Shown here: one piece after another, positions 9,933 through 10,716 of the stretch
How positions within the stretch are numbered: position 1 is the stretch's first letter
Layout: every line of letters begins with the position of its first letter
Source of the DNA: an uncultured Gammaproteobacteria bacterium
GTDB taxonomy: Bacteria > Patescibacteriota > Patescibacteriia > SBBC01 > CAIJZX01
Assembly: GCA_964383765.1 (NCBI GenBank)
Contig: CAYLHT010000001.1
Span: 100,998 to 164,997 of the forward strand
DNA: 64,000 bases
Direction: 5' to 3'
Position numbers and translations under genes: made by a program
Notes under the pieces: model-generated
What the model saw: the letters and a program-made list of their open reading frames with translations, nothing else
Told to the model about the DNA's origin: nothing
Database searches by the model: none

Positions 9933-10304
9933 AGACTAATAAGCATTGCTATTTTACGCGTCCAATTTCACTTATGTCAACTTAGATTTGGCAAAGAACA
10001 GCAGATTGGGAAAGGACGCTATTTCGTATTAAATTGATGTCATGTTCAAAAGAACATCAATCTCCAAACAAACTTACCTTTGCGTAATCAGGCAAATTTC
10101 CCTAAACTAGTTCGGCGTATGGAAGACCGGCACATAAAAAAGGACCTTCTACACATACTACTACTGGTAGTTTTTGTAAGCGTCTCACTCGCCATTATCA
10201 GATACTTCGACAGCAAAAATCATTTTACGACTCAAATTGTTTCAAAGTTAATAAAATCACTCTAGTTTAGGTTTTACGACACGTGGAACACTGTTCCTCA
10301 ACTC

Positions 10305-10486
10305 GCCCCTGTAGCTCAACGGATAGACCTGCCCGCCATTGCCTGAGCCCCCATAGTTCAATTGGATAGAACGGCCCCGTCCTAAGGGGCAAAACTTGGT
10401 TCGAATCCAGGTGGGGGCACTGGCGAAGGCAGGCGGGGCAATCCCGTCCTAAGGGAGAGATAGAGGTTCAATTCCTTTCAGGGGCA
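10305..10486 (+). other. tRNA-Arg(CCU)-like host gene interrupted in the D stem by a 110-nt insert that carries another tRNA
   Basis: 10305-10327 plus 10438-10486 join into a 72-nt cloverleaf: acceptor GCCCCTG/CAGGGGC 7/7 bp, D stem GCTC/GA|GC, anticodon loop GTCCTAA, T arm AGAGG-TTCAATT-CCTTT. The insert is 10328-10437. Confidence 0.6.
10347..10419 (+). tRNA. tRNA-Arg (anticodon CCT)
   Basis: GCCCCCA-TA-GTTC-AATTGGATA-GAAC-G-GCCCC-GTCCTAA-GGGGC-AAAA-CTTGG-TTCGAAT-CCAGG-TGGGGGC-A. Complete cloverleaf, folded by hand. Confidence 0.9.
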
Positions 10487-10522
10487 CCGGTATAAGATTT
10501 AAGATTAAAGTTATAAGTATTT

Positions 10523-10598
10523 GGGCCCTTAGCTCACTTGGTAGAGCGCTTCCATGGCATGGAAGAGGTAACCGGTTCGATCCCGGTAGGGTCCACCA
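10523..10598 (+). tRNA. tRNA-Ala (anticodon GGC), CCA encoded
   Basis: GGGCCCT-TA-GCTC-ACTTGGTA-GAGC-G-CTTCC-ATGGCAT-GGAAG-AGGTA-ACCGG-TTCGATC-CCGGT-AGGGTCC-A-CCA. G3:U70 is present. Confidence 0.92.
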
Positions 10599-10628
10599 AG
10601 GTTAGCCAAAAAAAGAGGTTAATTGAAA

Positions 10629-10708
10629 TGTTCCACGTGGAACACTTGAAAGTTTTTAAATGTTCCTCGCGGAACAGTGTAAAATTTGTTAATGTTCCTC
10701 GCGGAACA
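10629..10708. promoter_or_regulatory. Three TGTTCC-N4-GGAACA palindromes at exact 32-bp spacing
   Basis: Copies at 10629-10644 (TGTTCCACGTGGAACA), 10661-10676 and 10693-10708 (TGTTCCTCGCGGAACA), each followed by an A/T-rich tail. Related copies occur at 10042-10057 and 10281-10297. Confidence 0.55.
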
Positions 10709-10716
10709 CTAGATTT

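What the first reader, a model, noticed from the sequence alone, without database searches (positions are those of the whole stretch)
10042..10716. Array of TGTTCC-N4-GGAACA palindromes with exact 32-bp phasing in front of the nested tRNA-Ala locus
Three 16-bp palindromes start at 10629, 10661 and 10693, exactly 32 bp apart, which is about three helical turns. Each is embedded in a similar 32-bp unit (AATGTTCCnnnnGGAACAnTnnAAAnTTTnTTA).

A rearranged copy (ACGTGGAACA-C-TGTTCC) sits at 10281-10297, just before the nested tRNA-Arg locus. A relaxed copy (ATGTTC-AAAA-GAACAT) is at 10042-10057.

The last GGAACACT ends 6 nt before the Ala-like host gene, and another ends 12 nt before the Arg-like host gene.

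The phasing and dyad symmetry suggest cooperative binding of a dimeric DNA-binding protein, or tandem promoter elements that drive tRNA transcription. The motif was not noticed elsewhere in the window on visual reading.
Basis: seen in the sequence. Interest (0 to 1): 0.5.

Follow-up and report, generated by a model that had tools for sequence, protein, structure and literature searches.

The report
Cluster of chromosomal parS centromere sites
The three evenly spaced palindromes in front of the tRNA-Ala gene are copies of parS, the well-known bacterial centromere sequence bound by the partition protein ParB, so this is an ordinary feature and not a tRNA promoter or regulator array.

Summary
TGTTCC-N4-GGAACA occurs at 10629, 10661 and 10693, exactly 32 bp apart. 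Shuffled sequence gives none.

The first copy, TGTTCCACGTGGAACA, is letter for letter the chromosomal parS site of Pseudomonas and Myxococcus, the ParB/Spo0J centromere. 244 of 331 sites had the ACGT core, and 31 of 120 stretches of at most 8 kb also encode a ParB.

The window comes from a Patescibacteria (CPR) bacterium related to Kerfeldbacteria. Six related genomes carry 1-4 such sites at the same locus: five have them among the tRNA-Arg/tRNA-Ala genes, and three share the gdh site. Arms and central CG never vary; spacers have diverged.

The best reading is a compact centromere that loads ParB clamps for chromosome segregation and SMC loading. No sigma-70-type promoter lies in the array.

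Main gap: no parB gene is in the window, and the rest of the genome could not be read.

Mildly unusual points are the conserved ~32-bp spacing, free variation at positions 7 and 10, and the position inside a tRNA cluster. Interest is low.

The parts
10626..10710 (.). Tandem array of three 32-bp units, each made of one 16-bp parS-type palindrome and a 16-bp A/T-rich spacer
   Evidence: TRF: period 32, 2.7 copies, 83% matches. The repeat finder family D3. In the alignment of orthologous spacers the conserved blocks are the palindromes.
10629..10644 (.). parS site 1, TGTTCCACGTGGAACA, a perfect canonical palindrome
   Evidence: Identical to P. aeruginosa parS2/parS3 and P. putida parS (PMC4368675 Table 1; PMC7022226 Table 1).
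10661..10676 (.). parS site 2, TGTTCCTCGCGGAACA, with core variants at positions 7 and 10
   Evidence: The same variant occurs at the orthologous place in L158.
10693..10708 (.). parS site 3, TGTTCCTCGCGGAACA, ending 8 nt before the Ala-like host gene
13693..13708 (.). parS site 4, TGTTCCGCGTGGAACA, inside gdh, where it encodes N-V-P-R-G-T
   Evidence: The same position in gdh carries a site in L122, L161 and L164, where it is identical.
10280..10299 (.). Scrambled parS remnant CACGTGGAACAC|TGTTCCTC. It forms an everted GGAACA-n-TGTTCC and contains one half-parS (GTGGAAC = GTTCCAC on the other strand).
   Evidence: D6, I6, I11. A similar everted repeat lies before tRNA-Arg in L164, and a full perfect parS lies there in L162.

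Best explanation
The palindromes are chromosomal parS sites, the centromere-like loading sites of the ParABS partition system.

Mechanism, from established knowledge of ParB. A ParB dimer recognises each 16-bp site through its helix-turn-helix domains. Binding to parS triggers CTP-dependent closure of the dimer into a clamp, which slides onto the flanking DNA. Repeated loading builds a partition complex. ParA moves that complex, and SMC/condensin is loaded from it.

In this Patescibacteria lineage the centromere is compact. It consists of 2-3 sites about 32 bp apart between tRNA-Ala(GGC) and tRNA-Ala(CGC), plus one or two satellite sites within a few kb; in the window the satellite is inside gdh.

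What is shown: the sequence identity to parS, the clustering, the conservation across relatives, and the association of this 16-mer with parB in other phyla.

What is inferred: that this organism encodes a ParB that binds these sites, that the core-variant sites (TCGC, GCGT) are also bound, and that the 32-bp spacing has a functional meaning.

The 32-bp unit most likely arose by tandem duplication.
For: 1. Site 1 equals the experimentally characterised parS of P. aeruginosa and P. putida. Myxococcus uses TGTTCCACGTGGAACG, and the B. subtilis consensus is TGTTNCACGTGAAACA.

They come from Acidobacteriota, Bacteroidota, Firmicutes, Proteobacteria, Planctomycetota, Verrucomicrobia, Actinobacteria and Parcubacteria. 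The core is ACGT in 244 of 331 sites. 31 of the 120 stretches (at most 8 kb each) encode a protein with ParB box II (GERRxRA) and 45 a ParA-type Walker A motif. In the two complete genomes I checked, the hits lie 28-36 kb (Terriglobus roseus) and 24-32 kb (Tepidisphaera) from coordinate 1.

3. The window holds only four sites with up to 3 mismatches, all within 3.1 kb, against 0 expected.

4. Seven related genomes share the synteny bactofilin | tRNAs | csoR-trx-trxB-gdh. They carry 22 sites in 173 kb, against 0.05 expected. Positions 1-5, 8-9 and 12-16 are invariant; positions 7 and 10 are free. Where the region between the two tRNA-Ala genes could be read (window, L156, L158, L161, L164), it holds 2-3 sites, with spacings of 32/32, 33/32, 22/31, 32 and 32 bp.

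5. In the alignment of those spacers, the invariant columns are almost all in the palindrome arms and the central CG.

6. Intragenic parS sites are normal for parS (PMC4368675). The gdh copy sits in a variable protein linker and recurs in four genomes (for L164).

7. No promoter-like site lies in the array and no Rfam family matches it.
Against: No parA or parB gene was found in the 64-kb window. This rests on the motif scan, Pfam scans of most of the longer ORFs (no ParA/ParB family, some ORFs with no hit) and a tblastn with 34 ParB queries. None was found in 533 kb of Patescibacteria loci either.

The rest of the source genome is a 177-kb NCBI contig, and it could not be retrieved. The presence of a cognate ParB is therefore untested.

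The window has no DnaA-box cluster, and its GC skew is uninformative, so proximity to the origin is not shown.

Two of the three array sites have a non-canonical core (CTCGCG instead of CACGTG). In P. aeruginosa, core changes lower ParB affinity (PMC4368675).

Among 108 tandem canonical-core pairs from other phyla, none is spaced 32-33 bp; the mode is 38. The regular spacing is therefore peculiar to this lineage and remains unexplained.
Confidence: 0.85

Rival explanations
1. Operators for a dimeric transcription factor, for example one of the TrmB-like regulators. The factor would bind cooperatively on one face of the helix and control transcription of the tRNA-Ala and tRNA-Arg genes.
For: In several relatives the sites lie 8-21 nt upstream of tRNA or host gene starts. 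In L162 a perfect site lies 11 nt before tRNA-Arg. The ~32-bp spacing, about three helical turns, is conserved in four lineages. A TrmB-like gene is syntenic.
Against: The 16-mer is the universal parS and is associated with parB in other phyla. One conserved copy lies in the middle of gdh. The six other tRNA genes in the window lack the motif. No sigma-70-type promoter lies in or around the array.
Confidence: 0.05
2. RNA-level element. The palindromes are transcribed within a polycistronic pre-tRNA and form 6-bp hairpins that guide processing or stabilise the spacer.
For: The spacer folds well as RNA: -38.2 kcal/mol, z = -5.1. The TGTTCT...GGAACA variants would keep a U-G pair.
Against: The central CG, which would be in the 'loop', is invariant in 22 of 22 sites, and the arms never show compensatory changes. 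That pattern indicates sequence-specific readout, not structural readout. The strong fold follows trivially from repeated palindromes. The gdh copy and the copies in other phyla are not in tRNA spacers. No Rfam family matches.
Confidence: 0.03
3. Sites for a ParB-family paralogue with another role, such as a Noc-like nucleoid-occlusion protein or a ParB-like regulator or silencer. Alternatively, relic parS sites in a lineage that has lost ParB.
For: Position 7 (half-site position 6), one of the two bases that separate parS from the Noc site NBS (PMC7383237), varies freely here. One site in L156 has the NBS-like core CCCGGG. No parB was seen in any stretch that could be read.
Against: Position 2 is always G, which is parS-type; NBS has A. 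Perfect canonical parS is retained in four of the seven genomes. The strict invariance of 12 positions across genomes whose TrxB is only 54-70% identical to the window's argues for an active reader.
Confidence: 0.05
4. A tandem repeat with no function, or a scar of the rearrangements that produced the nested tRNA genes.
For: The three units look like a tandem duplication at 66-78% identity. A scrambled fragment of the array lies before the Arg-like host.
Against: The sites are conserved in position and sequence in relatives that have plain, un-nested tRNA genes (L156, L158, L162, L164), while the spacers have diverged.
Confidence: 0.02

Closest known systems
Pseudomonas aeruginosa / P. putida chromosomal parS sites (parS1-parS4 cluster near oriC)
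   Same: Identical 16-bp sequence, TGTTCCACGTGGAACA. A small cluster of a few sites, some of them intragenic. A mixture of perfect sites and sites with 1-2 mismatches (PMC4368675, PMC7022226).
   Different: In Pseudomonas the sites are spread over kilobases near parAB and oriC. Here three sites sit in a 32-bp tandem array between tRNA genes, and neither parAB nor oriC is visible in the window. Here the mismatches are confined to positions 7 and 10.
Bacillus subtilis / Caulobacter parS (TGTTNCACGTGAAACA) and the ParB-CTP sliding-clamp mechanism
   Same: Same consensus family, and presumably the same mechanism of ParB nucleation, clamp closure, spreading and SMC loading (abstracts of PMC8494293 and PMC9449133).
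   Different: Positions 5 and 12 are C and G here, against T and A in the Bacillus/Caulobacter palindrome. Binding was not tested for this organism.
Myxococcus xanthus parS cluster (22 sites, TGTTCCACGTGGAACG) positioned by bactofilins and PadC
   Same: A dense cluster of near-identical sites of the same sequence type. A bactofilin gene is the conserved neighbour of the cluster here. In Myxococcus, bactofilins position ParB-parS complexes (bioRxiv 10.1101/2020.06.17.156356 abstract).
   Different: Far fewer sites here. The link to bactofilin is only gene neighbourhood and may be coincidence.
NrdR boxes (tandem 16-bp palindromes about 31-32 bp apart upstream of ribonucleotide reductase genes). 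Recalled from my own knowledge, not checked with a tool.
   Same: The architecture: two or more 16-bp palindromes about three helical turns apart.
   Different: The sequence is different (the NrdR consensus is roughly acaCwAtATaTwGtgt), and no nrd genes are nearby. Resemblance of layout only.
Noc-binding sites (NBS, TATTTCCCGGGAAATA)
   Same: A 16-bp palindrome read by a ParB-family HTH. It differs from parS at two bases per half-site (PMC7383237). Some sites here carry C at the discriminating core position.
   Different: Position 2 is always G here, against A in NBS. Noc is known from Firmicutes.

Membership tests
Chromosomal parS (ParB/Spo0J centromere site) | 16-bp inverted repeat matching TGTTNCACGTGAAACA or TGTTCCACGTGGAACA | tested here: met
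   Site 1 matches 16/16, site 4 matches 15/16, and sites 2 and 3 match 14/16. The sequence is identical to published parS.
Chromosomal parS (ParB/Spo0J centromere site) | Few copies per genome, clustered rather than dispersed | tested here: met
   Four sites in 64 kb, all within 3.1 kb, and none elsewhere with up to 3 mismatches. Relatives hold 1-4 sites per 13-21 kb, all at the same locus. Only the window, not the whole genome, could be examined.
Chromosomal parS (ParB/Spo0J centromere site) | Conserved under selection at orthologous places, with sequence-specific constraint and not only dyad symmetry | tested here: met
   22 sites in 7 genomes. 12 positions are invariant, including the central CG, while the spacers have diverged.
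Chromosomal parS (ParB/Spo0J centromere site) | A cognate ParB (and usually ParA) is encoded in the same genome | not testable with these tools
   None in the window or in the 533 kb of loci held. The remainder of the 177-kb source contig and of the MAG could not be fetched. In other phyla, 31 of 120 tandem-site stretches (at most 8 kb each) do encode ParB.
Chromosomal parS (ParB/Spo0J centromere site) | Location in the origin-proximal part of the chromosome | tested here: inconclusive
   No DnaA-box cluster, no dnaA gene, and weak, noisy GC skew. Gene orientation diverges at 9.9-10.3 kb, but that alone is not evidence for an origin.
Chromosomal parS (ParB/Spo0J centromere site) | Specific binding and CTP-dependent loading of ParB | not testable with these tools
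   This needs EMSA, a loading assay or ChIP-seq.
Sigma-70-type promoter or tandem promoter elements for tRNA genes | -35 and -10 hexamers at 16-18 bp spacing, placed upstream of the tRNA 5' end | tested here: not met
   No promoter-like site in 10599-10716. The only + strand hit in the region is at 10894-10922, before csoR.
TIGR arrays (Tas-associated tandem interspaced guide RNA arrays, common in CPR) | Two alternating 8-12-nt repeats separated by 9-nt variable spacers, in long arrays next to a tas (Nop-domain) gene | tested here: not met
   The unit here is 6+4+6 nt plus a 16-nt spacer, with only three units, and Pfam scans of the neighbouring ORFs reported no Nop-domain family. The definition is from PMC12045711.
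Noc-binding site (NBS) | A at position 2 and C at position 7 of the 16-mer (half-site positions 1 and 6) | tested here: not met
   Position 2 is G in 22 of 22 sites. Position 7 is C in only 2 of 22 (PMC7383237).

The most novel reading that the evidence does not exclude
This Kerfeldbacteria-related Patescibacteria clade uses a miniature centromere with fixed spacing: 2-3 parS sites held at about 32 bp, on one face of the helix, inside a tRNA operon and next to a bactofilin gene. Its ParB has lost discrimination at half-site position 6, the base that separates parS from Noc sites. Under this reading, the spacing and the tRNA context would matter functionally. For example, there could be cooperative clamp loading, or coupling or insulation between heavy tRNA transcription and ParB/SMC loading. 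A more radical version is that these genomes lack a canonical ParB and another protein reads the sites.
Probability: 0.1. Interest if true: 0.5.

Novelty: new member of a known kind. Interest (0 to 1): 0.18.

Why it matters
The main value is in removing a false lead. The array is not a new tRNA promoter or regulator system; it is the chromosome's centromere.

It has some practical uses. It marks the likely segregation and SMC-loading locus of an uncultured Patescibacteria lineage, a group for which my literature searches found no paper treating parS or ParB.

It also offers a natural series of core variants. Positions 7 and 10 are free while everything else is fixed, which bears on how ParB/Noc specificity evolves.

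Finally, it shows that a fixed ~32-bp spacing of parS sites can persist across genomes whose proteins are only about 55-70% identical.

None of this would surprise a specialist in chromosome segregation.

Tried and rejected
- I tried to retrieve the source genome to look for parB. The exact look-ups of the window's GDH and of the 100%-identical TrxB (P0001, on a 177-kb NCBI contig) returned nothing. ClpP returned only a 2.5-kb Logan contig. Cluster look-ups gave no organism names.
- The single metagenome scan, anchored on TrxB, returned only distant relatives (45% identity or less) with no parS sites. It was of little use.
- Literature searches for ParB or parS in Patescibacteria, CPR or Saccharibacteria found nothing relevant.
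- I considered a TIGR array and rejected it.
- I considered NrdR boxes and the Gram-positive LexA box (GAAC-N4-GTTC). I rejected both on sequence and half-site orientation, from my own knowledge.
- The 10042 palindrome (TGTTC-N4-GAACA) recalls LexA motifs reported for some phyla. I left it unresolved: it is a singleton, and I did not open the two papers found on LexA motifs.
- An origin of replication at 9.9-10.3 kb is not supported.
- I tested for a general helical-phasing rule among tandem parS pairs in other phyla. The distribution has a single peak around 38 bp, with no clean periodicity, and the sample is not phylogenetically independent.
- I ran no further search on ParB. The tool lists only the best 120 hits, and these would not reach this lineage.

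Full report
**Observation.** TGTTCC-N4-GGAACA starts at 10629, 10661 and 10693, with none expected in 100 shuffles. Tandem Repeats Finder calls a 32-bp period with 2.7 copies at 10626-10710. The copy at 10280-10299 is CACGTGGAACAC joined to TGTTCCTC. That is the two sequences flanking the first spacer of the array, with the spacer removed. The stated distances to the two 'host' tRNA-like genes are correct.

With up to three mismatches to TGTTCCACGTGGAACA, the window holds only these four sites, all within 3.1 kb.

**Context.** The window is bacterial. Its genes include clpP, a DHH phosphoesterase, rbfA, infB, a DAGK-like gene and a bactofilin gene on the minus strand up to 9932. Then come three tRNA genes: Arg-CCT, Ala-GGC and Ala-CGC. 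After them, on the plus strand, lie a csoR-like repressor, thioredoxin, thioredoxin reductase, a NUDIX gene and gdh, and further on RNase HII, nusA and an H+-pyrophosphatase. The closest named relatives of its thioredoxin reductase are Candidatus Kerfeldbacteria and Patescibacteria MAGs. A 100%-identical copy sits on a 177-kb NCBI contig that I could not retrieve.

**Identification.** I scanned one genome per species (185,579 species) for two TGTTCC-N4-GGAACA within 31 bp of each other. About 0.07 matches were expected by chance. The loci come from Acidobacteriota, Bacteroidota, Firmicutes, Proteobacteria, Planctomycetota, Verrucomicrobia, Actinobacteria and a Parcubacteria MAG.

The central four bases are ACGT in 244 of the 331 sites in those loci. 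The dominant 16-mer is therefore TGTTCCACGTGGAACA, which is exactly the first site of the window. A full-text search for that string returns papers on the ParABS partition system. It is the perfect palindromic parS2/parS3 of Pseudomonas aeruginosa and the parS of P. putida. Myxococcus uses TGTTCCACGTGGAACG, and the Bacillus consensus is TGTTNCACGTGAAACA (PMC7022226 Table 1; PMC4368675 Table 1).

Of the 120 stretches (at most 8 kb each), 31 encode a protein with the ParB box II motif GERRxRA and 45 a ParA-type Walker A motif. A random 8-kb piece of a genome would hold parB well under 1% of the time. In the two complete genomes I checked, the hits lie 28-36 kb (Terriglobus roseus) and 24-32 kb (Tepidisphaera) from coordinate 1.

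**Conservation in relatives.** Using thioredoxin reductase homologues, I fetched six related genomes that share the window's gene order. All carry parS-type sites at this locus:
- L156: sites at 431, 464 and 496 between tRNA-Ala(GGC) and tRNA-Ala(CGC).
- L158: sites at 8943, 8965 and 8996 in the same interval.
- L161: sites at 8281 and 8313.
- L164: sites at 9152 and 9184, a third just after tRNA-Ala(CGC), and one in gdh.
- L162 (Kerfeldbacteria): perfect sites 11 nt before tRNA-Arg and 48 nt before tRNA-Ala(GGC).
- L122: a site in gdh. Its upstream region runs off the contig.

In total there are 22 sites in 173 kb, against 0.05 expected. Positions 1-5, 8-9 and 12-16 never vary, and positions 7 and 10 take any base. 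In the alignment of the spacers between the two tRNA-Ala genes, the invariant columns are almost all in the palindrome arms and the central CG, while the rest has diverged. Centre-to-centre spacing is 32/32, 33/32, 32 and 32 bp in four lineages and 22/31 in one.

The gdh site lies in a variable linker just before the GFGNVG nucleotide-binding motif. It is present in the window, L122, L161 and L164, and decayed in L156 and L158 (for L164). Those two have a satellite site elsewhere.

**Mechanism.** The best-supported reading is a compact centromere. ParB dimers recognise each palindrome, close into CTP-bound clamps and slide off. They build a partition complex that ParA segregates and from which SMC is loaded. 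This mechanism comes from the literature, for example the abstracts of PMC8494293 and PMC9449133; it was not tested here. Intragenic parS sites and mixtures of perfect and imperfect sites are normal, and in P. aeruginosa affinity falls when the CACGTG core is altered (PMC4368675). Sites 2-4 of the window may therefore be weaker, unless this lineage's ParB is tolerant at positions 7 and 10. The free variation at exactly those positions suggests that it is. Position 7 is one of the two bases per half-site that separate parS from the Noc-binding site (PMC7383237). Position 2, the other one, is always the parS-type G.

No sigma-70-type promoter lies in the array. The only plus-strand promoter-like site nearby is at 10894-10922, overlapping a CsoR-type operator before the csoR-like gene. 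The six other tRNA genes of the window have no copy, and one copy is inside a coding region. The array folds well as RNA, but that follows trivially from repeated palindromes. The invariant 'loop' CG and the lack of compensatory arm changes argue for sequence-specific DNA readout. No Rfam family matches. TIGR arrays, which are frequent in CPR genomes, have a different unit structure and an associated tas gene (PMC12045711).

**Weak points.**
- No parA or parB is present in the window or in the 533 kb of Patescibacteria loci I hold. I could not read the rest of the genome, so the cognate ParB is inferred.
- Proximity to the origin is not shown. There is no DnaA-box cluster and the GC skew is noisy.
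- The meaning of the ~32-bp spacing is open. Among 108 tandem canonical-core pairs from other phyla none is at 32-33 bp, the mode is 38, and none is below 26. There is no general phasing rule, and the regularity here may simply be inherited from a tandem duplication.
- The everted remnant before the Arg-like host is partly conserved in L164 and replaced by a full parS in L162. It looks like a decayed or rearranged site, but I cannot exclude a role of its own.

**Verdict.** The feature is a new instance of a very well known element, with some lineage-specific peculiarities of modest interest.

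Noticed in passing
window 10305-10489 and 10717-10895; also L161 8350-8534 and L122 1-150: There are tRNA genes nested inside tRNA-like genes. The first host is a complete tRNA-Arg(CCT)-like gene with its own anticodon loop. After its D arm it carries a long stem (CTGCCCGCC.../...GGCGGGGCA) bearing a second tRNA-Arg(CCT) at 10347-10420. 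In the second host, a tRNA-Ala-like gene, the anticodon arm is replaced by a perfect 13-bp stem (CCAGCCCCACTTC/GAAGTGGGGCTGG) bearing tRNA-Ala(CGC) at 10764-10839. Similar nesting occurs in L161, and L122 has an insertion in the T arm. L156, L158, L162 and L164 have plain tRNAs at the same places. I know of no described equivalent in bacteria, and it deserves its own analysis.
   Followed up: partly
window 10899-10919 and 10894-10922, with the gene at 11098-11349: A GC-rich palindrome, ATATACCCCCGGGGGGTATAT, overlaps a near-consensus promoter (TAGACA-17-TATAAT) upstream of a CsoR/RcnR-family repressor gene (PF02583) and of thioredoxin and thioredoxin reductase. It looks like a CsoR-type operator, and a similar sequence is present in L164.
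   Followed up: partly
window 10934-10947 and 11085-11098: A perfect 14-nt inverted repeat, TCCCGTTAGAGATT / AATCTCTAACGGGA, with arms 137 nt apart, lies between the CsoR-type operator and the start of the csoR-like ORF (I3). Its purpose is unknown.
   Followed up: no
window 9525-9932 (minus strand): A bactofilin gene neighbours the parS/tRNA region in the window and in L158, L161, L162 and L164, directly in L162 and with one large gene in between in the other three; the L122 and L156 loci start inside the tRNA region and do not reach that far. In Myxococcus, bactofilins with PadC position the ParB-parS complexes (bioRxiv 10.1101/2020.06.17.156356 abstract). This may be coincidence.
   Followed up: no
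window 10042-10057: A perfect palindrome, ATGTTCAAAAGAACAT (TGTTC-N4-GAACA), lies in the region upstream of the bactofilin promoter (TTGACA-18-TAAAAT, 9980-9951, minus strand). It shares the half-site letters of parS but is 2 bp shorter. It is a singleton in the window, and I saw no counterpart in the relatives' sequence upstream of tRNA-Arg. It may be a binding site for some regulator.
   Followed up: partly
window 9952-9960, 10223-10231 and 10270-10278; L158, L162 and L164 upstream of tRNA-Arg: A motif TTTTACG(A/C) recurs three times in the window's intergenic region, read as TTTTACGAC at 10223 and 10270 and TTTTACGCG at 9952. In the relatives it also follows the stop codon of a small conserved ORF (about 60 aa; 10080-10265 in the window) just before the tRNA-Arg region. 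Its function is unknown.
   Followed up: no
window 5787-8065 (rbfA, infB, minus strand) and 20121-21692 (nusA, plus strand): From my own knowledge, the nusA-infB-rbfA operon is usually contiguous. Here it is split into two divergently oriented parts on either side of the parS region; the same split shows in L161 and L164 (with nusA and the H+-PPase gene on the plus side in L158 too), and infB-rbfA are divergent from the locus in L162.
   Followed up: no
L016 7008-7813 (Parcubacteria MAG JBAYWF010000010.1): Eight perfect TGTTCCACGTGGAACA sites lie within 800 bp, next to gyrA. They sit inside repeated segments of a 364-aa ORF, where they are read as ...NVPRGTF..., the same peptide the site encodes in the window's gdh.
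   Followed up: no
L001-L120 (loci): Acidobacteriaceae loci carry tandem TGTTCC-N4-GGAACA sites with non-ACGT cores (for example AGTC/GACT, TGCA, CCGG). They are often 26-27 bp apart and next to TGTACATAC-like repeats. These may be a lineage-specific parS variant or a different system.
   Followed up: no
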